From Candidatus Marinacidobacterales bacterium (GTDB lineage: Bacteria; Acidobacteriota; Vicinamibacteria; Marinacidobacterales; DATDRI01), in NCBI GenBank assembly GCA_965226495.1, contig OZ245365.1, positions 2,464,001 to 2,528,000 on the forward strand: a stretch of DNA of 64,000 nt, written 5' to 3'. Positions 21,589 to 48,082 of this stretch are shown piece after piece (positions within the stretch are counted from its first letter, which is position 1; each line of letters begins with the position of its first letter). A program made the translations under genes and the position numbers. The notes under the pieces were generated by a model. It searched no databases, was not told the DNA's origin, and saw only the letters and a list, made by a program, of their open reading frames with translations.

Positions 21589-21613
21589 TCCGGAGCGAGT
21601 ACCCAAAAGTAAC
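21589..21613 (+). repeat. Palindrome-family site A
   Basis: TCCGGA-GCGAGTACCCAAAAGTAAC. Confidence 0.8.
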
Positions 21614-21702
21614 ACTTCACTCTTCGCGCCTATCGCGAAATCTCCCGGCCATTCGAGGGAGGACAGCGGGTCCCAATTTCGTCTCTCTTTTGAGAGAAGG
21701 CG

Positions 21703-21775
21703 ATGGGACACGACCAGCTCTTCAAAGCGATTCTGGAGAAGTTCTTCAAGGACTTCCTGGAGATCAGTTTGCTGG
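21703..21775 (+). pseudogene. Rpn/YhgA-like nuclease N-terminal snippet
   Basis: MGHDQLFKAILEKFFKDFLEI after a purine-rich RBS, then similarity ends. Confidence 0.55.
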
Positions 21776-21939
21776 AGCACGAGGGGTTGGGCTACGGCCG
21801 TGCTTAGCGAATTCACAACAACCGTGCTCATCTGTGCGGTTGCCCTCCTTGTCGGCAGCGTCGGTTCTTTATTTCTCGTACGTGTTTCCCTGGGCTCGGA
21901 GTCCGAGGTAGAAGAGCTTCGCTACCGACGAAACGTATG

Positions 21940-22033
21940 GCATGTCAGGCCTGAGGCCTCTCCGGACGGACGCTTTCTCGCCTTCGCGGCCATGACCTTT
22001 TCGGCCAACGTTTGGATGATTGAGGGTTTCTAG
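21940..22033 (+). pseudogene. C-terminal remnant of a PD40/TolB-repeat protein
   Basis: SPDGRFLAFAAMTFSANVWMIEGF* ending 3 bp before the kinase ATG. Confidence 0.55.
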
Positions 22034-22036
22034 AAG

Positions 22037-24640
22037 ATGCCCCTCGCGTCCGGCGCTCGACTCGGCCAATACCAGATCGTCGAACCCATTGGTGCGGGCG
22101 GAATGGGAGAGGTTTATCGCGCGCGAGACACAAAGCTCGAGCGTGAAGTCGCTATCAAAGTCCTACCTGATGAGCTCTCGAAAGATGCCGAACGGCTTTC
22201 GAGATTCGAAAGAGAAGCCAAGCTCCTCGCCGCGCTTAACCACCCGAACGTTGCGACGCTCTACGGGTTCGAAGACGGTTATCTGGTCATGGAGCTGGTC
22301 GAGGGTGACACCCTTGCGGAGCAGATCGCGCGTGGCCCGATTTCCGTGGATGAGGCCCTACCTCTATTTATACAGATTGCCGAAGGACTCGAAGCGGCGC
22401 ACGAAAAAGGCATCATTCATCGGGACCTGAAGCCGGCGAACATCAAGGTCACGCCAGAGGGCAAAGTCAAGATCCTCGACTTCGGGCTGGCCAAGGCCTT
22501 CGCGCCGCCGGAGGCTGAGGTCGATGATTCATCACAATCCCCCACCCTAACCAGAGGCACCGCGCTCGGTGCGATCATGGGTACGGCTTCTTACATGTCC
22601 CCCGAGCAAGCTCGCGGTAAATCGGTCGACAAGCGGACGGACATCTGGGCCTTCGGGTGCTGCCTCTACGAAGCGCTCACCGGAAGGAAAGCATTCCGTG
22701 GCGAGAACGCCTCCGATATCATCGCCAGGGTCATCGAGCGCGAGCCACAATGGCGTCTCCTACCGCCAGAAACGAGCCCCAAGCTGAGAGAACTGCTCGC
22801 ACGTTGCCTGGAAAAGGACCGCCGCCTTCGAAAGCAATCGATTGGAGACACGAGGACCGATCTCGAGCGGATGGGCGACGAGCCCGGCAGCCCGGTCTCC
22901 GAACCGCCCGAGCGAGTACAAGCATATGGCTTCGCGCTCGTCGCTTTTGCGGGCGGTGTCGTCGGCTCTCTTCTCACGCTACTTGTCTTGTGGAGCGTGC
23001 GGTCGAACCCATCGGCCGAAACGATCCGAACGAGCATCAATTTGCCTTCAGGGCAGACGTTCAACGGCCTGAACCCCACGGCCGTCGTCAATGTCTCCGC
23101 CGACGGGCGCGACGTGGTCTATGCCTCAGAAGGAAACTCATTCAAAGAGTTGTACGGCAAATCCACTATGGACTTCGAACCGGGCCCGATCGAAGGCACC
23201 GAAGGCGGGCAGCATCCCTTCTACTCACCCGACGGTCGTTGGATCGCCTTCTTTGCCGATGGCGAACTCCGCCGGGTACCGCACGAAGGTGGTGCTCACG
23301 TACACCTCGCGACGGCGTCCCGCTTCTGGGAGGGCACATGGACCGATCGCGATACCATCCTGTACGGGGGACGCGGCGGAATCGTCGAGATACCCGCCGA
23401 CGGGGGTGAACCGGTGTCGCTTTCCCGGATCGGCGCCGGTGTCACCGCCCACCGCCGCCCACAGCTCCTCCCCGGGGGACGCCACGTCTTGTTGACGATT
23501 ATCATGGAGAACCGCCAGGCCGTGGCTCTACTCGATCTGAATTCTGGATCGATCCACGAGCTTTTCGAAGGCGCGGGTGCTCGATATGCCGAGTCGGGGC
23601 ACCTGGTGTTCGGCCGTGGCAGCTCTCTCTGGGCAGTGCCGTTCGACGGAAATCGGATGGAGATCGCGGGGCAGGAGGCACCAGTTCTCCCGAGTGTCCA
23701 ACGGGATGGATTCGGCACACCGCAGTTCGGCTTGAGCCGCGACGGCACGTTGGTCTACGTTCCGGCCGGACTCGGTACGGAGGGCGAGCTCGTCCTGGCC
23801 GATCGAGCCGGCCAGATCACGCGTCGGCTCCGAAAGCTTTCGGCAGCGGCGTAGATCCCGAGCTTGTCTCCAGATGGCCGGCAGTTGTTGATGGGAATTC
23901 AGGACGCGGTAACCGCAGAGCCCGCGGTCTGGCTGTTCGACCTCGCACGCGGAGGTGGCGGTGCGCAGCTCGTGGGAGGCAGCATGCCGTTCTGGCGCCC
24001 CGACGGTGAGGAATTCGCCTACGCCGGGCTCGGCGGGGAGGTGAAGGCGCGGCAGGTAGATGGCTCCGACGCACCAGAGCTTCTATATCGACCAGAGTAC
24101 TTCACCTGGCCGACCTCGTGGTCGCCCGACGGCCGTTGGCTGGCTGTCACGGAATTTCGGCCTGACACTGGCGCCGACGCACTCGCCGTGTCGACCGACG
24201 ACCCCCAAGAAAGGATCGGTATTGCTTCGACGATTCGCTTTGAGGGCTTTCCCATGTTCTCGCCGGACGGCAAATGGGTCGCTCACACAGCAATTCGCAA
24301 TGGCCTGGAAGACGTCTACGTGAAGGGCTTCCCGGAGGGTGGAAGCTACAAGATCTCGAACAGCGGCGGTACGCGACCGATCTGGAATCGGAAAGGCGAT
24401 GCCATCTACTACACCCTTGGCAACAAAGTGATGTTCGTCGAGGTCGACACGGCCGACGGGTTCAGCTCGTCTCTGCCTCGAGAACTATTCGAAGGTCCGT
24501 ACCGGGCCTTCAACTTCGATGTTTCCCCCGATGGGCAAACCTTAGTGATGGTCGCGTATGATCCGTCGGTCCGTCCGCGGGTTCACTTGGTGCAGAATTG
24601 GTTCGAGGAGTTGAAGCGCCTCGCCCCCACGGATAACTAG
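22037..24640 (+). pseudogene. Ser/Thr protein kinase-TM-PD40 propeller protein with one in-frame TAG
   Basis: IGAGGMGEVY, VAIKVL, HRDLKPAN, DFG, YMSPEQ; ORFs 22037-23854 and 23864-24640 share a frame across the TAG at 23852. Confidence 0.88.
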
Positions 24641-24642
24641 TC

Positions 24643-27375: not shown

Positions 27376-27596
27376 TCGACAAAACCTCCTTCTGTCGCCT
27401 TGGGACGGCCGCTACGTTGCCCGGGCCGTTGACCCGATCGGTGTGTGAACCGCCGGCGACCATGGGACGTGACGTAGCCGCCGCTAGCAAGGGCAGGGCG
27501 AGACATGGCCGGTCTGCTTGTCACCTACCCGGTAGCCATAGTTATCATGCTATCGGTTCAGGCGCAGCTGGGCTAGAGGAGCCGTACGTCATCGAC

Positions 27597-27640: not shown

Positions 27641-27655
27641 CGGTCCCACCAGGAC

Positions 27656-27895
27656 TCATTCCACCTCAACCATGACGCGCTCGATCGTCCCCGTGAACGC
27701 GAATGGCGGTTCGTAAGTCCAGCTCACCGGTGAGCCCCAGTCCTCGCCGACATCCAGGGTCTCGTCATAGGTGAAGAGCGTCGGCACCGTCTTGTCGATT
27801 CGTCCCTCGGCCACCTGAGTGCCGTTGAGGGACAGGGTGCCCTTCCCTCCCCTTCCTCGGCCGCCTCCGTCGTAAGCGAAGTCGAACCGTGACGA
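27656..27895 (-). pseudogene. Arylsulfatase C-terminal remnant
   Basis: RFDFAYDGGGRGRGG...TYDETLDVGEDWGSPVSWTYEPPF...VEVE matches the end of the sulfatase at 44745. Confidence 0.88.
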
Positions 27896-31061: not shown

Positions 31062-31105
31062 GTTACCTTTAGTTACTCGGTCCAGAACGAGTAACCAAAG
31101 GTAGC
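31062..31105. repeat. Palindrome-family site B (complete, two arms)
   Basis: GTTACCTTTAGTTACTCGG-TCCAGA-ACGAGTAACCAAAGGTAGC (19-6-19). Confidence 0.9.
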
Positions 31106-32956: not shown

Positions 32957-33331
32957 CTACTTCCCTGCCCCGAAGGCTTTCAGCAGCTTCCTAATCTGGT
33001 TACGGCTCACCGGGAGTACTCGGTTAACCGGAGGTTCGAGCTTCACCTCCCAGTCTTCCCTACCCTTCCGGCGTCGGATCTCTTGGATGCGGGCCAGGTT
33101 GACCGCGTGGTTGCGATGGATTCGGAGAAACCCGTAAGGCGTGAATTCCTTTAGAAGAGACCCCAGGGGGCGAACGTCCCGGAGCCGACGTTTGGATCTC
33201 AGGCGAACCAGCGTGTCGTCTCCTACCGCTTCCAGGAAGTAGACGTCGTTCGGATCGACCGGGACGCGGCGGAGCTCGGAGACATTAAGAAGGACCCGAC
33301 CGATACGGCTCATAGCTGTGTCTTTTAGCAT
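32957..33331 (-). CDS. Stand-alone LytTR DNA-binding protein
   Basis: DVYFLEAVGDDTLV, FLRIHRNHAVNLARI, LPVSR; no receiver domain. Confidence 0.9.
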   Translation of the reverse strand: MLKDTAMSRIGRVLLNVSELRRVPVDPNDVYFLEAVGDDTLVRLRSKRRLRDVRPLGSLLKEFTPYGFLRIHRNHAVNLARIQEIRRRKGREDWEVKLEPPVNRVLPVSRNQIRKLLKAFGAGK

Positions 33332-33438: not shown

Positions 33439-33466
33439 GCTACTTTCGGTAACTCGCCCGGACGAG
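33439..33466 (-). repeat. Palindrome-family site C (inverted; centre 2 nt shorter)
   Basis: Minus strand CTCG-TCCGGG-CGAGTTACCGAAAGTAGC. Confidence 0.75.
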
Positions 33467-33560
33467 ATTTCGAGATACACGCAATTCGCTTCGGACTTGC
33501 CCCCGAATCCTTTGACTTTTCAGTGCGTGCAGAGCTATTTTCACTTTCAAAGGGCTAGCC

Positions 33561-33790
33561 ATGTCATTGATCTCCGGCACCAAGCTGGGTCCCTACGAAG
33601 TCCTGGCACCTCTCGGTGCGGGCGGCATGGGTGAAGTTTACAAAGCCAAGGACACTCGGCTCGATCGTACCGTCGCCATCAAGGTCCTTCCCTCTCATCT
33701 TTCCGATAACCCGCAGCTCAAGGAACGATTCGAGCGAGAAGCTGCGCGGTCTCTAGCCAAGAACCATCCGAACATATGCACTCAGGCGAT
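33561..33790 (+). pseudogene. Ser/Thr kinase N-terminal remnant
   Basis: MSLISGTKLGPYEVLAPLGAGGMGEVYKAKDTRLDRTVAIKVL...NHPNICT, then similarity is lost at the convergent gene. Confidence 0.88.
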
Positions 33791-33798
33791 GGACGCTA

Positions 33799-34845
33799 CT
33801 ATGCTAGCCACACGGGGTTTCCACCCGGATTTCCACCACCGCATGGCCAGGGGCTTTTTGCCATTTCGCCGATCCCCGCGTCGACGAGCCAGAGTTCATC
33901 CTGCACCGTGAACACGAGCTTTCCTCCAGGCTCACGTAGCATTCGGTCCGAGGCGGTTTCAGACAGTGTAGTTTCTCGGTGAAGAACGTGTTTTTCGAGC
34001 GATTCATCCACAACGGAGAGCTCCCCGTTCCGCCAGAAGACCATTTCGCCGCTTGAGGTTACGAATGGATAGGTGGTGCCGAAGCCATCCAGGAGAGGCC
34101 CTTTTCGCATGCCGCCGTCTTGCTGCAGAACACCGACGTGCATGCGGGACGGCTTCCAGTTCTTCTCCTCAACGAGTCGCACCTCGCCGCTCTCACGGAC
34201 GACCCAATCACCATACGTGGCCCACTCGCGTTCAAACCCCTTGCGTGCGTTGTAGAGTTGCGTAGCTTTGTGACTCGGGGATCCGACGAGAAAGCGACCC
34301 GCTCCGACGGTCGCCGCATGGTGCACCGATCGGATTGACGTGTACCACAACATTTCACCGGTTTCCGCGTTCAGGCAATACCAATGTCCGAAGCCACCTC
34401 TCACGGCGGAAAAACCAGCCAACAAGAAACCAGCCGCCACGACAAGCGGCTCAGTCACGAAGTAGAGGGTCCAAGGGTGTTTCGAGTCGTGGCTGTCGAT
34501 CGGTAGCGACGTTGCCCAGCCGCGCTGGGCAACGTCGTCGAGGCGCATCACTCTTGGCTCACGCCACTGATCGAGTTGTGATTGGCATGTGCTTACAATG
34601 AATCCGTCCGGTAGACGCAGAAAACTCGCCAGAGCCTCGCCCGGCCTGAGAAAATCTGCGAGCGAGACGGTACGCCGTGCGTTTGGCCCGATTTCCTGGA
34701 TGGTCCCTTTCAGACTACTTCCAAGCCAAGGACAGGGGTCGGCAGCGGCGCGGATTTCCCATCCGAGCCCCATAATCGATGAATATTCAACGAGGTCGGC
34801 GAGATCAAGGTGCCAAAGACGGTTGCCGTCCGCATCAAAGCACAA
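33799..34845 (-). CDS. PQQ-like beta-propeller hypothetical protein (start uncertain, possibly frameshifted)
   Basis: CFDADGNRLW, YCLNAETGEMLW repeats; C-terminal SPWPCGGGNPGGNP. Confidence 0.55.
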   Translation of the reverse strand: MCFDADGNRLWHLDLADLVEYSSIMGLGWEIRAAADPCPWLGSSLKGTIQEIGPNARRTVSLADFLRPGEALASFLRLPDGFIVSTCQSQLDQWREPRVMRLDDVAQRGWATSLPIDSHDSKHPWTLYFVTEPLVVAAGFLLAGFSAVRGGFGHWYCLNAETGEMLWYTSIRSVHHAATVGAGRFLVGSPSHKATQLYNARKGFEREWATYGDWVVRESGEVRLVEEKNWKPSRMHVGVLQQDGGMRKGPLLDGFGTTYPFVTSSGEMVFWRNGELSVVDESLEKHVLHRETTLSETASDRMLREPGGKLVFTVQDELWLVDAGIGEMAKSPWPCGGGNPGGNPVWLA

Positions 34846-35055
34846 TACGGTTTCAGCAAGGTTTTCGTCTTGGGATACAAGACAGGCGGCTCGACGCGTG
34901 ACATTGAGGCGACGTTCGCGGACGTGCCCGACTGCAACAGCACCAAACCACTCCCGCGCCCTGACAGTTTCACGCGCTTGATCCTCATCAAGCCTCCTCG
35001 GTTTCGATACGGCGCATCGCTTAGTCTCTTAGAATATCTCCGATCCTGGGAGGCA

Positions 35056-35080
35056 GGCGGACCGAGTCACGAAAAGTAAC
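35056..35080 (+). repeat. Palindrome-family site D
   Basis: GGCGGA-CCGAGTCACGAAAAGTAAC. Confidence 0.75.
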
Positions 35081-35138
35081 AGAATGTGGTCACGGGCCTG
35101 GACTCGAACTAGGAGTACCGGAGTCACAATCCGGTGGG

Positions 35139-36059
35139 TTAACCGTTTACCCCCTCTTTCATGGCACTAGCCAGAATTTTGAGGCATTCCGGGGAAACCA
35201 GTCGATACTGAATTACGTTGCGAGCCTCGACTCGGCGGGCAGCGATGACGTCGCAGATGACGAGGTCAGCGGCTTCTAGGTTGCCGGCCGGTTGTTGTGG
35301 CAAGAAATACTCCTGTAGCGTGTGCTGCTGTCCGACAACGGGTGCCAAAACGCCTCGCGCCGTTTGTAGGACAAACTCGCTAATGGAAACCACGGCAATG
35401 GTGGACGGCTCCCGCAACTGGCGGACCCTCTCTAACTGTTCGCTCCCTGAGGAAAACGTGATGGGGATAGCAGGACGATCTTTCGGAACGACCCCGGCAA
35501 TCTTGGAGATGGCACCCCCTGGGCCCACGACCAACGTCCCCATCATCAGTTCATGAGCCGAGGTGAGATCGTCCGGGGAACACGTCTCGACGGGGAAACC
35601 GAGACTTTCTCTAAGCTCTTCCCGGAGCAGGTGGCGGATGCCGCTGTCGTCCGAGACCGCCAACAGATGGTCTGGGCGCTCTGCCATCAAACGCTCTCGC
35701 AGCCGCCGACGAAGTTGCTGAATGCTGTAGCCGGCCTCCTGTGCGGCCTGAAGAGTCTGATTGATCACATCGTCTATATCCTTCAAGTGTGGCGAGGAGG
35801 TCACCTCTCCCGGGGATCTCACCAGCATTCGACTCCCCCGGCGGCGGAGCACGAGATTGTGAGTCTCCAACTCTTGGTACACCTGGCTCACCGTGTTGCG
35901 GTTGATCTCGAGCCTGCGGGCCATGTCCCTGACGCTCGGAAGCGCCTCTCCCGGCTTCCATTTCCTCGTTGCAATCAAGAAAGTGATTTCTGCCACGAGT
36001 TGATCATGGATGGTGACATCGCTTTCCTTGCTGATACGGATGTCGGTCTGGGCAACCAT
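35139..36059 (-). CDS. GntR-family transcriptional regulator
   Basis: KPGEALPSVRDMARRLEINRNTVSQVYQEL...RRRGS. Confidence 0.9.
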   Translation of the reverse strand: MVAQTDIRISKESDVTIHDQLVAEITFLIATRKWKPGEALPSVRDMARRLEINRNTVSQVYQELETHNLVLRRRGSRMLVRSPGEVTSSPHLKDIDDVINQTLQAAQEAGYSIQQLRRRLRERLMAERPDHLLAVSDDSGIRHLLREELRESLGFPVETCSPDDLTSAHELMMGTLVVGPGGAISKIAGVVPKDRPAIPITFSSGSEQLERVRQLREPSTIAVVSISEFVLQTARGVLAPVVGQQHTLQEYFLPQQPAGNLEAADLVICDVIAARRVEARNVIQYRLVSPECLKILASAMKEGVNG

Positions 36060-36232
36060 ACCGGCTGGCCTCCGCGGCGGATCGGGTCCAATCGACCCTT
36101 GGTTGCGGCAATTCTACACGGTCTTTTCGAACGTGACACCTCAGAAACTGTCACATTCCCCGTGGCGTCGTCTCCCCGCCCTGGCTACAGTCAACTACGG
36201 CTTAGTTGGGAGCCCAGAGGGAGGAACAAGCG

Positions 36233-36886
36233 ATGAGGAGCAAGGTGGTTGCGACTTGGAGTTCCATGGCAGCGGTACTGGCACTCGCATCTTCGGCCGA
36301 GGCGAACACCGGCCTGCCGATGCTCTCAATAATGTGGCCGTTCATGATGTTGGCGCTTGTCCCAATTATCGCCATTGAAGCGTACGTGTTGTCCGTAAAA
36401 CTTGCCATGGCGGTCGCACAGGTGTCGCCCGCCGCGTTCGTCGCCAACGCGGTGTCGACCATCGTGGGAGTGCCCGTTGCGTGGTTTCTAATGTTGTTCG
36501 TTCCCGGGATGCAGCGTGTCGCTTGGGTCTTTCCGACGAATGGGTTGTCTATGCCGAAATCTTATTGGCAGGATGCCGGCGCGGCTTTGGCGCTGCTCGT
36601 GCCGTTTTTCTTCGCGTCTTGGTGGATTGAGTACCGCATCGTCATGTACATGATGCCCTGGCTCGAGGCGGCGACGATCAATGCGGCTGTTCTCACTGGA
36701 AACTTGACCACGTATGTGTGCTTGGCGGTGGTCATCGTAGGGCTAACCGTCTGGAGAATTCGGAGTGAGCGACGGCCGAAGCGGAAGAAGACGCGACGGG
36801 CGAGTGGCGAGGCCTCGGAGAATGCGTACGAGGACGAGCGAGCGCCGGTCCTGGAGCCAAGTCATGGCTCTGATACGGTGGGTTAG
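36233..36886 (+). CDS. Hypothetical multi-pass membrane protein
   Basis: GGAGG RBS, several hydrophobic segments, ANAVSTIVG and SWWIEY motifs. Confidence 0.7.
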   Translation: MRSKVVATWSSMAAVLALASSAEANTGLPMLSIMWPFMMLALVPIIAIEAYVLSVKLAMAVAQVSPAAFVANAVSTIVGVPVAWFLMLFVPGMQRVAWVFPTNGLSMPKSYWQDAGAALALLVPFFFASWWIEYRIVMYMMPWLEAATINAAVLTGNLTTYVCLAVVIVGLTVWRIRSERRPKRKKTRRASGEASENAYEDERAPVLEPSHGSDTVG

Positions 36887-39321: not shown

Positions 39322-39481
39322 GGCTTCCTCCTTGAATTGAGGCTTCTCTCCGGCCAACGACACTACCATATATGGGAGACGGTGTCGGGTAGGTCGTCGA
39401 GAAGATGGGGGCCCTTCCGATTTGATTCCGCGCCGCAGTCCATATACCTTCTTGTCTCGTTCCAGGGATAGGAGGAAACTC

Positions 39482-40864: not shown

Positions 40865-41776
40865 TCACTTCGCCTGAATCATCTTCAGCACGGCGACAAA
40901 GAGCTTGCTGTCCTCCTCTCCAAGAGAGAACACCGTCTGGTCGTGACCTTCATCTTCTAGAACGACGAGCTCCGCTTTCACGCCTTCGGCCTTCATCTTT
41001 TCGACGAGCTCTCGGGATTCGGTTTCGAAGGGCTCCAGGGTTCCGAAGGCAACAACCGCTCGCGGTACGGGGTTGTCGATGTCTAGGATGGGACTCGCCT
41101 CGGCGCGGAGATCTGGGTCGGGTACATAGGCATCGTTGTCCGGGGGCCGTGGACCGTCCCGCATGTCATAGGGGCCACTGACCGGGGCGACACCCTTGAC
41201 GAGTCCCTTCGGCAGCCCCATCTTCTCTCGCCAGGTGCCCCGCAGGCCGAGGTAGGCAGAAAGAAGCGCTCCGGCCGAGTGGCCACCCACGTAGATTCGG
41301 TTCGGATCGCCTCCGTACTCTTTAATGTTCTGGTGAATCCAGCGAACTGCAGCCGCAACATCTTCCGGCTGATCCGGGTAGTGAAATCCCTGCGCCGTGA
41401 GCCGATAGCTGGCTACCGCGGTGATGACGCCATTGGCTGCAAACGGCATCGCGATGTAGCCGTAGTGAGCACGATCGCCCTCTCGCAAGCCGCCTCCATG
41501 TAAGAACAAGAACGTAGCGGCGCCCACCGGTTTTTCCTTGGGTAAGTAGAGGTCCAATTTCTGTTTCGGATCGTGGCCGTAGGCCAGGTCCAGATGATGG
41601 GGTAGCTCTTTACGTGCTCTCGCTGTTCGCTCGTCGCAGGTTTCGTAGAAACTGACCCAGTCGATGCTGAACTCGTCAGCATGTTGGATGGTGTAGTATT
41701 TCGACGGGTCCTGACCCGCGGATGCGGATGAAATCAAGAGACTGAAAAAGACCAGTGCGTGTATCTTCTTGCTCAT
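40865..41776 (-). CDS. Secreted alpha/beta hydrolase (esterase/arylformamidase-like)
   Basis: LFLHGGG, GGHSAG, LDLYLP; ATG at 41776. Confidence 0.9.
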   Translation of the reverse strand: MSKKIHALVFFSLLISSASAGQDPSKYYTIQHADEFSIDWVSFYETCDERTARARKELPHHLDLAYGHDPKQKLDLYLPKEKPVGAATFLFLHGGGLREGDRAHYGYIAMPFAANGVITAVASYRLTAQGFHYPDQPEDVAAAVRWIHQNIKEYGGDPNRIYVGGHSAGALLSAYLGLRGTWREKMGLPKGLVKGVAPVSGPYDMRDGPRPPDNDAYVPDPDLRAEASPILDIDNPVPRAVVAFGTLEPFETESRELVEKMKAEGVKAELVVLEDEGHDQTVFSLGEEDSKLFVAVLKMIQAK

Positions 41777-41959
41777 GGTTCGACTCCCTGAAACGTTATG
41801 GCCGTCGCTCGTCAATGCCGCCCTTCCGCCCCACCCGCTCGGTCCGCCATGCCGATTCAATGACCGCCGGGCTCGGGACACTAGTCTAGGCGCTTTTCAT
41901 AGCAAGGTATAGGACGTGTCCTGAGCCACCGATGGCCTCCGCGAACTTTCTGGAGGCGG

Positions 41960-42123
41960 TATTGACATCCAACGGTGTTCGACCAGGTTCAACTGGACTC
42001 CGAAGCACACACGCTGGTTTGGCCCAACGGTCTGATTTTGACCCCGCGATTCTCCACAATTGGCCGAAAGCAGGGCCCAAGCTCGAGGCTCTTGCGAAAT
42101 CGTGGAACGTACCTGCCAAGTAG
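41960..42123 (+). pseudogene. DUF2442-like antitoxin C-terminal remnant
   Basis: FDQVQLDSEAHTLVWPNG / DFDPAILHNWP split by a frameshift. Confidence 0.65.
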
Positions 42124-42152
42124 AACTCTTCGTCTGGCGGTAGACCTACTCG

Positions 42153-43990
42153 GGACGTGAGAAAAATTCGGATTGCGGGGAGATGGGGATGGTTGGTCCA
42201 CAGTTCTGACGATCACGGCGATCGGGCCGGCATCCCGCGGATTCACGCCGTTATCGGCGCTGGAGTTTCGATGATGCCTTCTGACACGCTGAAACTCGCC
42301 CGGCTGCGTGTGCACAATCGCCGGTCGGGTGGCGCTCACGCCGGCACGGGCTCCGATACCAAGTTCGGCCTCCATCGGAGGCGAATCCACTGCTGGATAT
42401 CGTAGGTGAGGGCGGCCCAGAGAGATTCGGTGCGCACTTTGGCGATTCCGCGCACGCTAAACTGCCGCAGGCCGAACTTGGCTTTGATCCAAAGATTCGG
42501 AAACTCGGCCACCTGCGAGCGTGTCTTATAGATGGCCTTGGCTTCGTCGGTCTGCATCTTCTGCCGGAATGCGGCTATCTCCGGCAAGGGTTCGAGCCTT
42601 TCGATCGACCGACCGCTCGACGTGCGAGGACAGCAGAACTCCTTGACCGAGCACGTGTCGCAATCTTTCGCCGAGGCCTTGTATCGATAGCGCATCATGC
42701 CATCGCGTTCGAACTTTGCGTCGTAGCGTAAACGCTTGCCCTGCGGGCATACGTACGTGTTGCTCGCCTCATCGTGCACAAAGCTCGATGCTTCGAAAGC
42801 CGAAATAATGCCGTAGCGCTGATAGGACTTGCGCCGATTGGCCTCTGCCGACTTGCCCCGGGGCTCAGGGCCGACGAGGTCGATGCCGCGCTTCGCCATC
42901 TCCACGATGTTGTGGCTACTGATGTAGCCCCCATCTACGACCACCTGATCGGGCGTGCGCTGCAGCGTCTGTTCGATCCGTTCCATCGCCGGCGTCAGCT
43001 GCTGATAATCGCTGCCGGCCTGCGTGGCATCGATGTCGACAATCAAGCCGTGCGCGGCATCCGTTAAGATCTGGACGTTGTAGCTGGGCGCGGAACCGCC
43101 CTCGGCTTGCTTCATCACCCGCGCGTCGGGGTCGGTCGTGCTCACGCGCTCCATGCGGCTTTTCGCCGCTTTCAGCTTGTCGAATTCCTTCAACGCTGAT
43201 TCTAGCCGCTGGCGTCTCTCACGCTTGGCGCGTTGCTGCGCTGCCTGCATCTGTCGGCTCGATTCCTCCTCCGTCTGTGCCTCGAGGGCCTCGACCGCCT
43301 CACGCGCCTGCTCCAGATACGCCTCGACTCGAGGCTTACGGCGAAATCTATTCGACGATGCGTTCGCGCGCACCTTCGTCCCATCCTGCATGACCCGCTC
43401 GAGTGGGATCAATCCTTCCGCACTCAGCAGCCCTAACGTTTGCACAAACAACTCGTGCAAGGCGTCCGCATGCGCGACCCGAAAGTCCGACAGCGTGTGC
43501 GCACTGATGCCTTCCATCCCCGTCAGCCATTGATACCCCGGCTCATGCTCGCACAGTCGCTCAATCGCGCGGGCCGAACTCTCTCCCCGGCTGTAGCTGT
43601 AGACCCAAAGGCTCACCAGAAGCTGCGGGTCAAACGCAGGCCGGCCTGCGGCACCGGCGACCGAGCGGACCTGCTCCCTATAGCGACTAAGATCCAGCTG
43701 CCCCACGAACTCCCAGATCGCACGCGCTGGGTGATCCCTGGGGATCAACCGCTCCACGTCGACCGTCCGCAGCAGCATCTGCGTGCGATCGACCACCTTC
43801 AACCGAGCCTCTCCCGCCCGCTCGCACTCATCGCCGTCACCACCATCGCCAGGCACGGGCAAGCCCGGCAACGACGCTTGCTTATCGCCCACGCTTACCC
43901 CACTTCCTCCTACGATTCGTCACGTATCCCATGACCGCAATCTTGCAACATAGCTGCAACGTGAGTAAAGCCCAATTTTTTCTCACGTCC
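42153..43990 (-). mobile_element. IS1182-family element, transposase 42336-43892
   Basis: Terminal IRs GGACGTGAGAAAAA at both ends, TCG (or CTCGG) duplicated; HPARAIW, GRPAFDP, DGTKVRANAS, STTDPDARVMK, YNVQ, DGGY. Confidence 0.93.
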
Positions 43991-44019
43991 TCGGTCCGGA
44001 CCCAGTAACCAAAGGTAAC
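43991..44019 (+). repeat. Palindrome-family site E (left arm split by IS1182)
   Basis: Empty site reconstructs as CCTACTCGG-TCCGGA-CCCAGTAACCAAAGGTAAC. Confidence 0.88.
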
Positions 44020-44028
44020 AACAGACCG

Positions 44029-44580
44029 CTACTTGGTGGATTCGAAGCGCTCGTTTGCCTTTCGGAAGTTTTCGCGAAGGGCCTCGACATCGAAGGGGCG
44101 TTCTGCGAGGGTTTTGGAATCCCATTCGCTGCGGCCAGGCGCGAAGAAGTTTCCGCCGTAGATGTGGATCGCTCCTGTGAGTTGGGGAATCGGGTTGATC
44201 ACCGAGTGGATTCCGTTTTCTCCGAGAGGAAACACTTCTTTCTCAGACAACGATGCGGCTCGCTTCGCCTGCACCGTTGATCCCTCTCGCTGCCAAAGAA
44301 TGTTGTCCTCGCGCCCGGTATAGATGCCGATCGAAGCCCACATGTTGTGGTTGTGAGGCAGGAGCACCATGAGAGGAGCCCAGATCACGTTGAGGATCGT
44401 GAGGTCGTCCTCGTGGTGGAGGACGCCCAATCCCGCGGTCTCCGGCTCCCCCAAGCCCTCGAGAACGCGGCCCGGTTCCGACACCGCCCGTGCCAAGACC
44501 TCGCTCACCGCCCCTTGACCGTTGAGATTGGCCCTCTTTACCTCGTCAACGAATCGCTCGGTATCAAACTTCTTGGTCAT
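44029..44580 (-). CDS. Cysteine-dioxygenase-like cupin protein
   Basis: LNVIWAP..LLPHNHNMWASIGIYTGREDN...IHSVINP...AIHIYGG. Confidence 0.85.
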   Translation of the reverse strand: MTKKFDTERFVDEVKRANLNGQGAVSEVLARAVSEPGRVLEGLGEPETAGLGVLHHEDDLTILNVIWAPLMVLLPHNHNMWASIGIYTGREDNILWQREGSTVQAKRAASLSEKEVFPLGENGIHSVINPIPQLTGAIHIYGGNFFAPGRSEWDSKTLAERPFDVEALRENFRKANERFESTK

Positions 44581-44671
44581 GGGTGGTCTCTCCAGTTCGT
44601 CCCCGGGCGACGGTGGTCGCAGCTAGGAGAACGACACTTCCTCCCTCCTACTGGGCGCGGGGCATCGCTCG

Positions 44672-44715
44672 GGATTATACCGATACTCGGTGCGGACCGA
44701 GTATCCAAAAGTAAC
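44672..44715 (+). repeat. Palindrome-family site F
   Basis: GGATTATACCGATACTCGG-TGCGGA-CCGAGTATCCAAAAGTAAC; inner 9-bp arms are a perfect inverted repeat. Confidence 0.88.
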
Positions 44716-44744
44716 AAGACCCCAGGGAGTTGGGGTATGTCGGC

Positions 44745-47020
44745 CTACTCCACCTCAATCGTCACTCGCTCGAGCTTCCCCGTGAACGGAAACGGAGGTT
44801 CGTAAGTCCAGCTCACCGGTGAGCCCCAGTCCTCACCGACGTCCAGGGTTTCGTCGTACGTGAAGAGAATCGGCACGGTCTTGTCGATCCGGCCTCGAGC
44901 CACCTGCTTACCGTTGACGGACATTGTGCCCATGCCGCCCTTTCCGCGGCCGCCTCCGTCATAAACGAAGTCGAACCGAAGCGTGGACTTCCCCACCGGC
45001 AAGGGATCTGAAGAGGCGATGGTGTAGCGCTCCAAAGCGAACCAGTTATAGACGAACGTCGGTATCCCGTCTTGCACCATGAGCACGAAGCCGGCAGGCG
45101 AGCCACCGAGGGTCACGATGACTCCTTCTGTCATGCTTTCCGCAGTCTCGATTTCAGCGACAATAGAAAACGACCGGTTCTTGATATCAATGACTCCCTG
45201 TTCCGGCATTCGAGAGATGCCGGGCCCGTAGACCACTTTGTTGCCGGTGGTTAGTTGTGGGCCGTGTCGGGTCGCCAGCAGCGCCGCCATGTCGTCGCGC
45301 AGCGGATACACGTGGTGTTCTTCGGCCTGGTGGTTGAAGAGTTGCTTCAGCGTCTCGAGTTTCTCCGGGTGGGTCTCTGCCAAGTTCTTCGATTGGCCAT
45401 AGTCGTTTTCCAGATCGTAGAGCTCCCACTCGTCGTTCGCGAAGTCACCCGGACTCCCCAGGCTGGTTCCCGTAAAGCCGTGGCGAGTTCCAGCCCACCA
45501 TCCTTCTTGGTAAATGGCGCGGGTGCCTATCGACTCGAAATACTGGGTCGTGTGTCTGCTCGGGGCGTCTTGGTCGTCGAACGTGTAGATCATACTGACG
45601 CCTTCGATCGGCTTTTGCTGGATGCCGTTGACCGTTTCGGGCTCCGGAAGGCCGGAAGCCTCGAGGATCGTCGGTACGATATCGATCAGATGGTGAAACT
45701 GCGTGCGGAGGCCACCATTGTCCTTGATTCGAGCGGGCCAAGAGATGACCATGCCGCTCCGCACGCCCCCGAGATGGGAAGCCACCGGCTTTCCCCACAT
45801 GAACGGTGCGCTGGTGGCGTAGGCCACGTTGCGGGCATGGAGCCATAGGAGCGCGGGCCACCAAGCTCGTCGATTTCGTCGAGCATTCTCTCCAAGGGAT
45901 AGGTCACGCCATTGGTAAACGCTGACTTGTTGTTGCTCCCTTGGAGTCCACCTTCCGGCGTGGGGCCGTTGTCACCGGGTATATAGATGATGAGTGTGTT
46001 GTCGATGTCACCCATCTGCTCAATAGCTTCGATGATGCGACCGACTTGGAAATCGGTATGCTCGAACGAACCGGAGACAACCTCCATCCACCGGGCACCG
46101 ACTTTTTTCTCTATGTCGGTGAGCTCGTCCCAGTGCGGCAAGATCCCTTCCGGCCATGCGCTGAGCTTCGTATCGGAAGGTACGACCCCCAGCGCGATCT
46201 GCCTAGTCAATGTTCGCGTTCGGAGATTGTCATAGCCGTCGTCAAACTTGCCTTTGTACTTGGCGATGAAACTCTTGGGCGCTGCAACCGGCGGCTTGTG
46301 GGCTGCCGGAGCCCAATAGGCGAACCAGGGTTTCTCGGGATAGACCGTCTGCTGCTGCTGGATCCACCGTATCGCCTTGTCGGCCATGTCGGCCTCGAAG
46401 TGATATCCCTCGTCTGGCGTCTTCGCGGGGCGGACGGGTGTAGTGTTCTCCCAAATGGGCGTATACCAACTGTTGGCGCCGGCGCCGAAGAAACCGTAGA
46501 AATAATCGAAACCGAAGCTTGTCGGCCATCGGTCGAACGGTCCCACCGGCGTGATCTCGTAGACCGGCGTCAGGTGTGATTTGCCGAACCAGGCCGTGGC
46601 GTAGCCGTTCTGACGCAGAATCTCGCCAACCGTCGCGGCGCTTTTCGGAATGATGGCGTTGTAGCTCGGATGGTCGCTCGCCATTTCCGGAGTGAAGCCC
46701 ATTCCGACGGAGTGAGCGTTGCGGCCGGTGAGGAGCGCCGCGCGGGATGCCGCACAGACGGCGTTGGTGTGAAAGTAGTTATAACGCAGTCCCTCGTTCG
46801 CGAGCCGATCGAGGGTGGGCGTGTTGACGGGTCCGCCGAAGGTGCTTGGCTGGCCGAAACCGACGTCGTCACCCATGACCAGCAGGACGTTGGGAGCTCC
46901 CTCGGGTGCCCGAAGATCTTGCGCGGAGTCGGGTGGCAAGACCGTCCGATCCGAAGTGGCCGGGGGGCTGCAAGCGACGATGCCCAGTAGAACGACCATC
47001 GGGAGAAGAAAACGCTTCAT
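44745..47020 (-). pseudogene. Arylsulfatase lipoprotein with 1-nt frameshift
   Basis: IVAC lipobox, PNVLLVMGDDVGFG, CAASRAALLTGR sulfatase motif, GKSH, GDNG; frameshift near 45825 (TGG CCT ACG instead of TGG GCC TAC). Confidence 0.9.
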
Positions 47021-47061
47021 TCCATCCTCACAAAGTGGGCCTGAGCAGTAGATCAAACCTA

Positions 47062-47086
47062 GTCGGTCCGAGTAATCATAAGTAAC
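47062..47086 (+). repeat. Palindrome-family site G
   Basis: GTCGGT-CCGAGTAATCATAAGTAAC. Confidence 0.75.
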
Positions 47087-47174
47087 TGCGTTGGAGGCCG
47101 GGGGACAGTCTTTCGCAGCCTTGCATTGAGCATTGAGGGACAGGCTCGGTGCCTGCCCCTCGGTTACGGCACCG

Positions 47175-47945
47175 CTAGTCCGAATTGGGATTGCTCGGTC
47201 TGTAGCTCAGGTCTTCTCGGTACGTCAGGATCGTAAAATTAGTACTGTGGAAGCTCGTCTTGGAAAGGACGTCCATAATGGCGTTGCTCTCGGTCCGTCC
47301 GTAGGCGTCTTCCAGCATTTTGGGGAAACCCCTCGGCCGACCAATCGACGCCCAGCTCTTGTGGACCCACCACACGAGGAAGGCCGGCTGACGGCCTCCT
47401 GCTACGACGCGGCTGAAATAGTACTGCAGGTCGGAGTCGGCCTTGGCGATCGCGGCCGGGAGCTTACCGACTGCGTTCACGTACTCCTCCGCCTTCTCCG
47501 GCTTCGCATAGACCGTAACCACCAGGGCGAGCTTTGCTGGAGGCGTCCCCTTAGGAGGTGTGACACTATGCGTCGGCAAGTCGACAATATAGCTGGTCTC
47601 CATAGACTCGGTGTAGGGCCCGGCGTTTTTCTTCCAATCTGCCGCGTCCTCCGGTCCCGACACCGGGATGTTGTCGAAATCGGACCATTTGTGCTCGAAC
47701 GTACCAATGGTGAAGTCCCCCGTGTTTTCGCCGCTCGAAATTTGGTGAACTTCCCACTGCCAGGGGTCGCCTTTCTTACGGTGATACTCCATGTGCTTCT
47801 TGGCGCCCTCGACCCATTGGTCCGTCATTCCGGGCTTGGGCTTCACATGGATCATCATTCCCACCACGTCCTCCTCTTGTGACGCGGCGGGCAACGCGGT
47901 GAAGACCAGACCCAGCGCACCGCCGATAAGAAGTAGCCTCTTCAT
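47175..47945 (-). CDS. Secreted hypothetical protein with two similar alpha/beta (NIPSNAP-like) halves
   Basis: Signal peptide; HVKPKPG / YAKPEK repeats; ends YREDLSY. Confidence 0.7.
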   Translation of the reverse strand: MKRLLLIGGALGLVFTALPAASQEEDVVGMMIHVKPKPGMTDQWVEGAKKHMEYHRKKGDPWQWEVHQISSGENTGDFTIGTFEHKWSDFDNIPVSGPEDAADWKKNAGPYTESMETSYIVDLPTHSVTPPKGTPPAKLALVVTVYAKPEKAEEYVNAVGKLPAAIAKADSDLQYYFSRVVAGGRQPAFLVWWVHKSWASIGRPRGFPKMLEDAYGRTESNAIMDVLSKTSFHSTNFTILTYREDLSYRPSNPNSD

Positions 47946-48047
47946 TCTTGCCCCCTTTGCCCTCTATGAATTCCAGAGCTTTCTGCTCGCAGATTTGGCA
48001 CAACCCTACGCACGGCATCATCGCAAGTCAAGGGACCTGTCGTGCGC

Positions 48048-48082
48048 TACTCGGTCCGGACCGAGCAACCCAAACTATTAAC
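48048..48082 (+). repeat. Palindrome-family site H
   Basis: TACTCGG-TCCGGA-CCGAGCAACCCAAACTATTAAC. Confidence 0.8.

What the first reader, a model, noticed from the sequence alone, without database searches (positions are those of the whole stretch)
21589..48082. Eight copies of an unannotated ~44-bp palindrome-derived site delimit gene cassettes: candidate non-attC cassette recombination system
Seen: sites at 21589 (A), 31062 (B), 33439 (C, inverted), 35056 (D), 43995 (E), 44672 (F), 47062 (G) and 48048 (H) share a 19-bp arm near CCGAGTAACCAAAAGTAAC (two GTAAC motifs one helical turn apart) beside a near-palindromic core close to TCCGGA. B has both arms (19-6-19); E, F and H keep only the inner TACTCGG of the second arm. 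All are intergenic. Six lie 9-88 bp beyond the stop codon of a minus-strand gene (B 24, D 58, E 9, F 29, G 88, H 17 bp). E-F, F-G and G-H each enclose exactly one gene (cupin, sulfatase, secreted protein). A weaker arm-only match is at 27528-27546. Established: attC sites run RYYYAAC...GTTRRRY, which these do not; large serine recombinase att sites are imperfect palindromes of about 40-50 bp that yield hybrid half-sites. Inference: these are recombination junctions of an integron-like array that accumulates hydrolase genes near dif, with the recombinase encoded elsewhere. Alternatives are a REP-like repeat, a regulator site or a terminus-organising site.
Basis: partly seen in the sequence, partly recalled or inferred. 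Interest (0 to 1): 0.9.

Follow-up and report, generated by a model that had tools for sequence, protein, structure and literature searches.

The report
Palindromic repeat that attracts mobile DNA
The eight sites are real copies of a small lineage-specific palindromic repeat that sits behind genes and is a favoured landing place for insertion sequences, not the boundaries of an integron-like gene-cassette system.

Summary
The motif is real. One search found 7 arm matches in the window against 0.01 expected. The 6.34-Mb genome has only 22 arm matches, about 20 loci, and 13 of the 22 lie in 220 kb beside a dif-like site.

It is not a cassette system.
- Site E is the flank of a 1.84-kb IS1182-family insertion sequence that landed inside a unit. 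All 5 genome copies sit in such units, and two relatives carry one of these sites unoccupied.
- C and D are the two halves of one palindrome, intact in a sister species and split here by a 1.6-kb insert.
- No tyrosine, serine or Y1 recombinase gene lies beside a site in 5 genomes. The one near case is a Xer-like gene 2.7 kb from a 3-mismatch hit.
- Contigs from 4 metagenome runs show no excision joints.

Units usually point their long arm at the stop codon of a neighbouring gene. They keep dyad symmetry through compensatory changes and persist at orthologous loci in sister species.

The same 18-bp core also bounds and interrupts a roughly 35-copy HNH-endonuclease gene family.

Best reading: a REP-like hairpin and protein-binding repeat that acts as an insertion and rearrangement hotspot.

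The parts
21589..21613 (+). Site A: single unit, core TCCGGA plus a 19-nt arm with 2 mismatches. It lies between divergent genes, so it is an exception to the 3'-end rule.
31062..31105 (.). Site B: full 19-6-19 palindrome, 24 bp behind the stop of an amidohydrolase gene. As single-stranded DNA it folds at -14.4 kcal/mol, z -5.4.
33439..33465 (-). Site C: left arm plus a core-like CCCGGA. It is the left half of a palindrome that is intact in G002 (C1:30749-30791).
33466..35055 (.). 1.6-kb insert that splits C from D. It holds a 5' fragment of a Ser/Thr kinase gene and a beta-propeller-like ORF (PQQ_2, below cut-off). The ORF itself carries a 35-bp piece of an IS256-like gene.
35056..35080 (+). 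Site D: core-like GGCGGA plus right arm, the right half of the same palindrome. With the tRNA-like stretch it is 85% identical to G002:C1:30771-30843.
35086..35153 (-). tRNA-like fragment whose 3' end lies 6 nt from the outer tip of D. Rfam tRNA scores 30.7 bits over model positions 9-63, and ARAGORN calls no gene.
42145..42152 (+). Left remnant of the unit that holds site E (CCTACTCG), directly left of the insertion sequence.
42153..43990 (-). IS1182-family insertion sequence, 1838 bp. Its own terminal inverted repeats read GGACGTGAGAAAAA. The transposase gene is at 42336-43892. It is one of 5 copies, 99.3-99.7% identical.
43991..44019 (+). Site E: right part of the targeted unit (TCGG-TCCGGA-arm), 9 bp behind the stop of ORF 44029-44580.
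44680..44715 (+). Site F: single unit with a 10-bp stem, including a compensated A/T swap (GATAC...GTATC). It lies 29 bp behind the sulfatase stop codon.
47062..47086 (+). Site G: arm with the core hexamer deleted.
48047..48082 (+). Site H: perfect core and inner stems with a degenerate outer arm. It lies 17 bp behind the M28 peptidase stop codon. An orthologous unit is present in G001 and absent in G002.
32957..33331 (-). Stand-alone LytTR DNA-binding gene whose start lies 108 bp from site C. This is a lead only for a site-binding protein.
6082..6109 (-). dif-like site, the only one in the genome at up to 8 mismatches to the motif used. It lies at the GC-skew maximum. It is context, not part of the repeat family.

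Best explanation
The sites are copies of a lineage-specific, dyad-symmetric intergenic repeat. The consensus is [GTTACTTTTGGT]TACTCGG-TCCGGA-CCGAGTAACCAAAAGTAAC(A).

The basic unit is about 34 nt: a short GC-rich palindrome followed on one side by a 12-13-nt tail. The tail carries the second of two GTAAC boxes that lie one helical turn apart. Two units overlapping head to head give the 44-bp full palindrome (B). Tail-to-tail pairs also occur.

Units usually lie just behind a gene with the long arm towards the stop codon. In kind the family behaves like REP/BIME elements. It is a small repeat with a conserved protein-recognition arm and a core that can form a hairpin or cruciform. Copies persist at orthologous loci, and the family consensus is maintained across genera.

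Inferred mechanism: because the core is a structured palindrome, it is a preferred entry point for mobile DNA and a breakpoint for rearrangement. Shown here:
- An IS1182-family insertion sequence always inserts at the left foot of the core, in one orientation, with a short target duplication (TCG to CTYGG).
- A 1.6-kb segment has entered the core between C and D.
- The same 18-bp core forms the boundaries of multi-copy HNH-endonuclease gene elements and a hotspot inside them.

The cassette-like look of E-H arises because four tandem minus-strand genes each carry a unit behind their stop codon, in a plastic region next to dif.

Inferred and not shown: what binds the arm, whether the unit terminates or stabilises transcripts, and how new copies arise.
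For: 1. Real, rare and clustered. The window has 7 matches against 0.01 expected. The genome has 22 arms at up to 3 mismatches, 13 of them between 2.4 and 2.8 Mb.

2. Lineage-specific. Counts in relatives are 6 and 21 in the same genus (G001, G002) and 7 and 5 in the same family (G003, G007). Most other genomes sit at the level of the reversed-pattern control. An exact-pattern scan of species-representative genomes gave 15 loci, 11 of them in contigs of the same lineage.

3. Site E is an IS target.
- The transposase matches NF033551 at 406.8 bits against a cut-off of 270.
- There are 5 copies at 99.3-99.7% identity.
- In 5 of 5 the right flank is CTYGG-TCCGGA-arm in the same orientation, and the arms differ at 7 of 25 positions between copies.
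- G001 and G002 hold the orthologue of the unit at 6,072,383 intact and unoccupied.
- The two copies with mismatched duplications (copies 2 and 5) have swapped flanks relative to G001 and G002. That points to recombination between IS copies.
- IS1182-family IS1272 and TnSha1 are reported to target hairpins and inverted repeats behind genes (PMC4923244 passages; PMC5678879 abstract and section 22).

4. C and D are one palindrome. G002:C1:30749-30791 is a full palindrome followed by the same tRNA-like stretch.

5. Orientation. In 10-11 of about 17 assessable loci the long arm faces a stop codon 9-110 bp away. Two loci lie between convergent genes.

6. Dyad symmetry is maintained. Across 19 units and 11 pairs, 77% of cells pair. 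There are 7 double-change cells against 2.3 +/- 1.3 in shuffles (1 of 500 shuffles reached 7). The core variants TTCGAA and CCCGGG stay symmetric.

7. The arm is the best-conserved part (alignment A3). Orthologous arms match at 112 of 133 positions. This is my own count from the sequences.

8. Other IS families hit the same core in G008: an IS200-like element and a second IS sit inside the palindrome of the HNH gene linker.

9. Link to HNH elements. The core occurs inside about a dozen HNH genes and at both ends of the HNH-B element. In G002:C1:149839 and G001:C10:93192 the long arm plus core is itself the 5' terminal palindrome of an HNH-B element.
Against: - The copy number, about 20 loci, is low for REP-type families.
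- No RAYT/Y1 transposase is linked. The two Y1_Tnp genes have no repeated 16-mers within 1.5 kb and no unit nearby.
- How the family keeps its consensus is therefore unexplained.
- The two copies with perfect arms (2,569,920 and 2,704,904) fold poorly as hairpins (z -0.56 and +1.16). The hairpin cannot be the only selected feature.
- Site A lies between divergent genes, and C faces the start of a gene.
- The strong clustering beside dif in G000 and G002 is not predicted by a plain REP model.
- Synteny with sister species does break at several sites, as a recombination-site model would predict.
- No RNA data were available, so a role at transcript 3' ends is untested.
- Terminator-like hits in 30-50 kb are not above shuffles: 15 found against 16.1 expected.
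Confidence: 0.5

Rival explanations
1. The units are true recombination sites. A trans-acting enzyme cuts and rejoins DNA at the TCCGGA-centred core, so that segments bounded by cores are exchanged, inserted or deleted. The candidate enzyme would be the multi-copy HNH endonuclease family or a distant tyrosine recombinase.
For: - Hybrid sites exist. A long arm plus core is joined directly to the 5' end of an HNH-B element at two independent loci.
- HNH-B homology among 5 copies starts at a 5' core palindrome and ends at or just after a 3' core palindrome.
- One copy (3,212,111) carries the canonical right half-core at its 3' end, followed by an unrelated flank.
- C|D and the unit at 5,636,797 have 1.6-kb and 4.9-kb inserts at the core.
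- Symmetry is kept right to the centre of the core.
- Same-orientation arrays with one gene between units occur in E-H, and in G007 on two contigs (G007 is unpublished).
- The 10-6-10 layout resembles core sites of tyrosine recombinases. This comparison is recalled, not tested.
Against: - No recombinase gene lies next to any of about 45 site loci in 5 genomes.
- No excision or circle joints appear in contigs of 4 runs. The one joint at a site (33462 to 44743) reproduces the arrangement seen in G002.
- Many sites are stable at orthologous loci.
- Most intervals between sites span many genes.
- The insertions at the core that can be identified are ordinary insertion sequences with their own ends and target duplications.
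- The HNH family is found in 16 of 17 genomes of family f2, where the long-arm motif is at or near control level.
- An attempt to read an empty HNH-B target was inconclusive.
Confidence: 0.15
2. The arms are the terminal inverted repeats of a non-autonomous transposon family. The outer GTAAC(A) is the tip. The 44-bp palindromes are minimal MITEs. C...D and G002:C3:21534...25249 are copies with cargo. Single units are solo ends.
For: - Full copies have two inverted arms (B, 2,671,056, 1,264,124/1,265,985, two in G002 and two in G003).
- C(-)...D(+) encloses 1.6 kb.
- In G002 an inverted arm pair encloses the sulfatase gene, and a 9-bp gap separates it from the preceding arm.
- The base after GTAAC is A in 17 of 21 arms. 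This is my own count.
- The arm is the most conserved part.
Against: - No target-site duplication flanks any full copy.
- No element was found that encodes a transposase between such arms, apart from the IS1182 copy. That IS has its own different inverted repeats and lacks the left arm in 4 of 5 copies.
- Single units share a recurrent inner boundary (CTACTCGG in 7 loci), which random truncation would not give.
- The right arm of D and the arm of C have their nearest relatives at different G002 loci.
Confidence: 0.15
3. The units are fixed host regulatory sites with no mobility of their own. Each would be a protein-dependent terminator or mRNA 3'-end element, or an operator for a DNA-binding protein such as the stand-alone LytTR protein.
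For: - The long arm faces stop codons.
- In F and H a GC-rich hairpin lies just upstream of the T-rich outer arm and scores as terminator-like.
- Both stand-alone LytTR genes of G000 (2 of 2) lie about 110 bp from a unit.
- Orthologous arms are about as conserved as coding DNA.
Against: - Twenty near-identical sequences behind unrelated genes need a copying process.
- Units are gained or lost at orthologous gene ends.
- No unit lies beside LytTR homologues in the loci of 10 other genomes scanned.
- No U-tract follows the hairpin.
- Terminator-like hits are not enriched.
Confidence: 0.1
4. The units are terminus-organising or polar replication sites, comparable to matS, Ter or KOPS.
For: 12 of about 20 loci lie within 235 kb of dif in G000. 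G002 units also flank its dif (C1:4707, 30749 and 50040 against dif at 33517).
Against: - All clustered G000 units lie on one side of dif.
- Orientation does not follow the replichore: 10 '+' and 6 '-' on the left replichore.
- In G003 the units lie 0.3-0.66 Mb from dif or on another contig.
- In G001 no unit shares the contig that carries dif.
- Eight loci lie elsewhere in G000.
Confidence: 0.03

Closest known systems
REP / BIME / REPIN elements of proteobacteria (recalled knowledge)
   Same: - Short imperfect palindromes placed behind genes.
- Found as singles and as inverted pairs.
- Lineage-specific consensus.
- Conserved at orthologous loci.
- Known landing pads for insertion sequences and breakpoints for rearrangement.
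   Different: - Only about 20 loci per genome.
- No linked RAYT (Y1) transposase.
- The best-conserved part is a non-palindromic arm with two GTAAC boxes, not the hairpin.
- Strong clustering beside dif in two species.
Hairpin and inverted-repeat targets of IS1272/TnSha1, IS1182 family (PMC4923244, PMC5678879)
   Same: An IS1182-family element inserts into inverted-repeat structures that lie just behind genes.
   Different: - In staphylococci the targets share no sequence, no target duplication forms, and part of the hairpin is lost.
- Here 5 of 5 insertions are in one sequence family, at the same position and orientation, with a 3-5-bp duplication and the hairpin halves kept.
Integron attC sites and cassette arrays
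   Same: An imperfect palindrome lies behind an ORF. Four same-orientation sites (E-H) have one gene between each pair.
   Different: - No RYYYAAC/GTTRRRY boxes.
- No intI, attI or Pc nearby.
- Most intervals span many genes.
- Units persist in conserved synteny.
- No cassette was seen to move as a unit.
dif-like modules: pdif modules and IMEX arrays (recalled knowledge)
   Same: Repeated sites of 6-bp-spacer palindrome type bound gene modules, and they lie near dif.
   Different: There is no sequence likeness to this genome's own dif-like site. The dif association is absent in G003.

Membership tests
Integron attC / cassette array | Inverse core RYYYAAC and core GTTRRRY at the two ends of the site | tested here: not met
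   The units begin GTTAC... and end ...GTAAC. No 7-mer fits either box (sequences).
Integron attC / cassette array | An integron integrase gene with attI next to the array | tested here: not met
   PF00589 gives 7 hits in G000, none between 2.46 and 2.72 Mb. None lies within 2.5 kb of a site in G001, G002, G003 or G007.
Integron attC / cassette array | One site per cassette, all in one orientation, along the whole array | tested here: not met
   This holds only for E-H. The other intervals are 1.6-63 kb, C is inverted and B is symmetric.
Integron attC / cassette array | Cassettes excise as circles or occur in other contexts bounded by the same sites | tested here: inconclusive
   No such joints appear in contigs of 4 runs, but contigs drop rare variants. 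The sulfatase gene carries a site in G002 and none in G001.
REP/BIME (REPIN-RAYT) | Short imperfect palindrome in intergenic DNA behind genes | tested here: met
REP/BIME (REPIN-RAYT) | Occurs singly and as inverted pairs | tested here: met
   Single units: A, E, F, H. Head-to-head: B. Tail-to-tail: G002:C3:21493-21554.
REP/BIME (REPIN-RAYT) | A RAYT (Y1 transposase) gene flanked by the repeats | tested here: not met
   There are two Y1_Tnp hits (1,860,259 and 3,578,570). No unit lies near either, and neither has repeated 16-mers within 1.5 kb.
REP/BIME (REPIN-RAYT) | Tens to hundreds of dispersed copies | tested here: not met
   About 20 loci, 12 of them in one 220-kb stretch.
IS1182 family (element at 42153-43990) | Transposase above the family model's cut-off | tested here: met
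   NF033551 at 406.8 bits against cut-off 270. Pfam DUF772, DDE_Tnp_1 and DDE_Tnp_1_6.
IS1182 family (element at 42153-43990) | Terminal inverted repeats and several near-identical copies | tested here: met
   Ends read GGACGTGAGAAAAA / TTTTTTCTCACGTCC. There are 5 copies at 99.3-99.7%.
MITE | Target-site duplication flanking terminal inverted repeats | tested here: not met
   No duplication flanks B, 2,671,056 or 1,264,124/1,266,003.
MITE | A parent element with the same terminal repeats that encodes a transposase | tested here: not met
   None was found in G000 or in the loci read. The IS1182 copy has different ends of its own.
Xer/dif-type sites (IMEX, pdif modules) | Sequence likeness to the host's XerC/XerD-binding dif site | tested here: not met
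   The dif-like site at 6082-6109 shares no arm sequence with the units.
matS/Ter-type terminus sites | Confined to the terminus region in related genomes | tested here: not met
   G003 units lie 0.3-0.66 Mb from dif or on another contig. Eight G000 loci lie elsewhere.

The most novel reading that the evidence does not exclude
The TCCGGA-centred palindromes are the working sites of a DNA cut-and-rejoin system run by the roughly 35-copy HNH-endonuclease gene family. The elements are bounded by, and carry inside them, the same core. Cleavage at the symmetric centre lets any two cores be joined. HNH elements would spread this way, and gene segments in the plastic region beside dif would be shuffled. 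The long-arm units would be the resident chromosomal docking sites. This would be a gene-shuffling mechanism that uses neither a tyrosine, serine, DDE nor HUH enzyme.
Probability: 0.12. Interest if true: 0.8.

Novelty: new variant of a known kind. Interest (0 to 1): 0.45.

Why it matters
- It shows that a convincing-looking 'cassette array' can arise from a small structured repeat placed behind genes together with ordinary insertion-sequence activity.
- It documents an IS1182-family element with strict sequence, position and orientation specificity for a palindromic repeat. The published family members are reported to target structure only.
- It describes a REP-like family in a poorly studied marine lineage. 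Record titles name it Candidatus Marinacidobacterales. The family has no RAYT partner, so how such repeats are kept uniform remains open.
- It links that repeat's core to a large family of HNH-endonuclease genes. This is a concrete, testable lead to the enzyme that recognises the palindrome.

Tried and rejected
Known RNA families. Rfam at gathering scores found only one partial tRNA match in the window, beside D. ARAGORN found no tRNA gene.

Promoter or operator reading. Two units lie between convergent genes. Sigma-70-like hits number 5 against 4.9 expected, and none lies at a unit.

Intrinsic terminators. No U-tract follows the hairpin. The scan found 15 against 16.1 expected, and 2 hits use the outer arm of F or H as the T-rich tail.

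Replication-polar or terminus sites. Rejected on orientation and on G003 and G001.

RAYT link. Rejected.

LytTR protein as the binder. Both stand-alone genes in G000 lie about 110 bp from a unit. The link is not seen beside homologues in loci L013-L023, which come from 10 other genomes. I keep it as a lead only.

Neighbour-gene clustering around 31 sites. It found only Ser/Thr kinases, transposases and HNH genes as recurrent neighbours, and no recombinase.

Expression. No RNA holder was listed by the look-up of sequencing runs, so nothing can be said about transcripts.

Empty-site test for an HNH-B element. One locus is occupied in both species. At the other, G000 has 2.4 kb of mixed extra DNA and no clean target could be read.

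Literature on DUF222/HNH repeats. The search listing only was seen, and nothing relevant appeared. I read no supplements of any paper. Figures and supplements of PMC4923244 and PMC5678879 that list target sequences were not seen.

One search failed on a wrong frame of my own, and I resent the request without that protein. I resent it with that field added.

Full report
**Observation**

C appears at 4 mismatches. H has a degenerate outer arm but a perfect core with inner stems. The weak match at 27528 was not recovered by either search. The stated distances to stop codons are correct.

The window is bases 2,464,001-2,528,000 of a single 6,337,479-bp contig with 59% G+C. Genome-wide there are only 22 arm matches at up to 3 mismatches, and 13 of them lie between 2.4 and 2.8 Mb. 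Counted as loci, and including H, 12 of about 20 lie between 2,485,595 and 2,704,922.

A single dif-like site lies at 2,470,082, which is window 6082-6109. The cumulative GC skew peaks at 2,471,965 and is lowest at 5,689,324. The family is therefore real, rare and clustered on one side of dif. It is not a genome-wide REP of the usual abundance.

**Site E is the flank of an insertion sequence**

The ORF at 42336-43892 is a DDE transposase. It scores above the NCBIfam cut-off for the IS1182 family, at 406.8 bits against 270. The genome holds 5 copies that are 99.3-99.7% identical.

The element proper is 1838 bp (window 42153-43990) and has its own inverted repeats, GGACGTGAGAAAAA. In 5 of 5 copies the right flank reads CTYGG-TCCGGA-arm, always in the same orientation relative to the IS. 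The left flank ends in (A/T)ACTYGG, with a full left arm in 1 of 5 copies. The arms differ at 7 of 25 positions among the copies, whereas the IS body is nearly identical. The arms are therefore pre-existing target DNA and not part of the IS.

Direct proof comes from the sister species. G001:C5 and G002:C3 carry the orthologue of the unit at 6,072,383 intact and without the IS.

The duplicated target is TCG to CTYGG, depending on where the IS end is drawn. It is perfect in 3 of 5 copies. In the other two (copies 2 and 5) the left and right flanks are swapped. In G001 and G002 the flank of copy 2 (the 1.31-1.32 Mb region) is joined through the intact unit to the flank of copy 5 (6.0724 Mb). The mismatch is therefore explained by recombination between the two IS copies.

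Targeting of hairpins and inverted repeats behind genes is published for IS1182-family IS1272 and TnSha1 (PMC4923244, passages; PMC5678879, abstract, section 22 and passages). In those reports the targets share no sequence and no duplication forms.

**C and D are one site**

G002:C1:30749-30791 is a full palindrome followed by the same tRNA-like stretch that follows D. The match is 85% over window 35060-35132. The LytTR gene to the left of C also has its orthologue there.

In G000 a 1.6-kb segment lies between the left arm (C) and the right arm (D). It holds the first roughly 75 codons of a Ser/Thr kinase gene with its 5' leader, and a beta-propeller-like ORF.

A metagenome joint from 33462 to 44743 with 20 extra letters reproduces the G002 arrangement, where a C-like arm lies beside the sulfatase gene. 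It is not an excision product of this genome.

**Anatomy and placement**

The alignment of 19 units shows that the invariant and near-invariant columns are GGA, (C)GAGTAAC, AAA and GTAAC. The arm is therefore the best-conserved part.

The left inner stem pairs with the right in 77% of cells. There are 7 double-change cells against 2.3 +/- 1.3 in shuffles, and 1 of 500 shuffles reached 7. Slid controls pair in 20-45% of cells. Examples are GATAC...GTATC in F and the core variants TTCGAA and CCCGGG in G002.

Folding as single-stranded DNA is strong for B (z -5.4) and F (z -4.8). It is moderate for H (z -2.1) and the unit at 5,250,585 (z -2.0). It is absent for the two copies with perfect arms, at 2,569,920 and 2,704,904 (z -0.56 and +1.16). 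A hairpin alone cannot be the selected feature, so a protein that reads the arm is implied.

A crude ORF map and the ORF list show the long arm facing a stop codon 9-110 bp away. This holds for B, D, E, F, G, H, 2,548,044, 2,569,920, 2,704,904 and 5,250,585, and probably for 4,571,575. Two of these lie between convergent genes, which rules out a promoter role. A lies between divergent genes, and C faces a gene start. The remaining loci are ambiguous.

D follows a tRNA-like fragment in the same orientation. Seven single units share the same inner boundary, CTACTCGG: the left flank of E, H, and five in G002. The 34-nt unit is therefore a defined entity and not a randomly truncated palindrome.

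Central deletions of about 10 bp occur at G, at 2,671,056 and at 3,874,408. The last is shown by its G002 orthologue, which keeps the core.

**Comparative picture**

The motif is found in the same genus (G001 6, G002 21) and family (G003 7, G007 5). Most other genomes of the 41 scanned sit at the level of the reversed-pattern control. The exact pattern gave 15 loci in the species-representative collection, 11 of them in contigs of this lineage. Their record titles read Candidatus Marinacidobacterales MAGs.

Orthologous units are kept in place for these G000 loci:
- 6,072,383, in G001 and G002.
- 3,874,408, in G002.
- 2,671,056, in G002.
- 5,636,797, in G002.
- H, in G001.
- C+D, in G002.
- F, on the same gene in G002.

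The arms match at 112 of 133 positions over seven comparisons. This is my own count from the sequences. It is about the same as the neighbouring coding DNA, at 84-89%.

Units are also gained or lost. The sulfatase gene has none in G001, and the M28 gene has none in G002.

The window between about 10 and 48 kb shares only isolated genes with G001 and G002, scattered over their genomes. From 48,051 onward there is a conserved block. The units therefore lie in a plastic zone, and H marks its edge.

dif is at G002:C1:33517, with units at 4.7, 30.7 and 50.0 kb of that contig. In G003 the units are 0.3-0.66 Mb from dif or on another contig. In G001 none shares the dif contig. The dif association is therefore not general.

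**No recombinase, no excision**

- PF00589 gives 7 hits in G000, PF00239 gives 5 and PF01797 gives 2. None lies near a unit or inside the cluster.
- In G001, G002, G003 and G007, none of the 41 tyrosine-recombinase matches and none of the 41 serine-recombinase matches lies within 2.5 kb of a unit. The nearest is a Xer-like gene 2.7 kb from a 3-mismatch hit in G001.
- Twenty runs from 8 studies hold window 40-50 kb.
- I laid contigs of four runs from four studies. They bridge the E arm to F (43962-44826) and G to H (46253-48568 and 46853-50000) with 0 differences.
- Among the joints listed there is no circle or deletion joint at the sites. Nine further joints were not shown.
- Contigs drop rare variants, so this is weak evidence against active excision.

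**The core is shared with an HNH-endonuclease gene family**

The 18-bp core, ACTCGGTCCGGACCGAGT at up to 3 mismatches, occurs 39 times in the genome.
- 10 or 11 occurrences are the long-arm units.
- 12 lie inside or at the 3' end of HNH genes.
- 4 more lie about 420 bp upstream of such genes.

The family has about 35 copies by tblastn and 39 matches in the genome search. The proteins are 373 aa with a weak HNH match (Pfam E 0.001, below cut-off). Their nearest Atlas clusters are HNH proteins, and one cluster has DUF222 in 21% of its members.

In the HNH-B subfamily, homology among 5 copies starts at a 5' palindrome and ends at or about 25 nt after a 3' palindrome. The internal palindrome lies in the linker of the ORF. 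It varies in a compensated way (ACTGTG...CACAGT, ACTCCG...CGGAGT), changing two amino acids at once.

At G002:C1:149839 and G001:C10:93192 a long arm plus core is itself the 5' terminal palindrome of an HNH-B element. The outer flanks at the two loci are unrelated. The unit at 2,704,904 lies 112 bp behind an HNH-A gene.

In G008 an IS200-like element and a second IS sit inside the linker palindrome. Many HNH matches in other genomes break at residue about 180, where the palindrome lies.

The HNH family is found in 7 of 7 genomes of family f1 and in 16 of 17 of family f2. It is found in 0 of 16 of f3. That is wider than the long-arm motif, so the link runs through the core only.

**Interpretation**

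What is shown:
- A defined repeat family with a conserved arm and a maintained dyad.
- Placement behind genes.
- Persistence in place, together with gains and losses.
- Repeated use of its core as an entry point by at least one, and probably several, kinds of mobile DNA.

What is inferred:
- The unit is bound by a sequence-specific protein and can extrude as a hairpin.
- This structure is what the IS1182 transposase reads.
- The family is kept uniform by some copying process.

The closest known kind is REP/BIME, which I cite from recalled knowledge. Membership fails on the RAYT link and on copy number. The integron-like reading fails on most defining features.

A broader recombination reading, exchange at the core perhaps by the HNH family, is not excluded. 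I give it 0.15 in general and 0.12 for the specific HNH-driven form.

**Limits**

- Gene calls are crude ORF maps.
- There are no RNA data.
- Only three close relatives have long contigs.
- G007 is unpublished and is used only for counts.

Noticed in passing
window 34892-34926: A 35-bp piece is identical to an internal stretch of a multi-copy IS256-like transposase gene. The 37-mer has 13 exact copies in G000 and many 100% copies in G001, G002 and G003. Here it sits alone inside an ORF. It is absent from contigs of all 4 runs laid, and those of X7 and X9 are otherwise identical over 1426 nt. It looks like filler DNA from break repair, or an assembly artefact.
   Followed up: partly
window 31772 and 45823: This assembly has 7 extra bases at 31772 compared with contigs of all 4 runs. 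It lacks one C at 45823 compared with 3 of 4 runs. Both changes split a gene into two overlapping ORFs: the amidohydrolase (31130-32873) and the sulfatase (44745-47056). They are either strain-specific pseudogenes or consensus errors.
   Followed up: partly
genome 1,325,438-1,327,312 and 6,070,530-6,072,404: Two copies of the IS1182-family element have exchanged flanks relative to G001 and G002. This implies a large rearrangement by recombination between IS copies.
   Followed up: partly
about 35 loci in G000, e.g. 2,705,037-2,706,155 and 3,211,782-3,213,142: A large family of HNH-endonuclease genes. Subfamily A copies sit between tandem Ser/Thr-kinase/PD40 genes, directly after one kinase's stop codon and before the next kinase's leader. 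Subfamily B copies are 1.37-kb units bounded by TCCGGA-centred palindromes, and one lies right behind a tRNA 3' end (176,468).
   Followed up: partly
window 6584-6742 and 32957-33331; genome 4,530,932-4,531,285: A stand-alone LytTR gene family with fragments and in-frame stops in several genomes. It is 85% identical between families f1 and f2, which suggests horizontal spread. One fragment lies about 500 bp from dif.
   Followed up: partly
window 11726-13553: A stretch 94-98% identical to several loci in G002, far above the usual 85-89%. It is probably another shared mobile element.
   Followed up: no
window 27660-27889: A 230-bp copy of the 3' end of the sulfatase gene, 84-86% identical to the G001 and G002 genes.
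   Followed up: no
L057 (G002:C1:2,042,877 region): Directly after ACTCGG of a unit lies a roughly 24-bp sequence that resembles the two IS1182 end repeats fused together. It may be a minimal derivative or a footprint of that IS at its usual target position.
   Followed up: no
genome 2.48-2.66 Mb: The GC skew is nearly flat for about 180 kb to the right of dif. This fits a zone of recently acquired or rearranged DNA.
   Followed up: no
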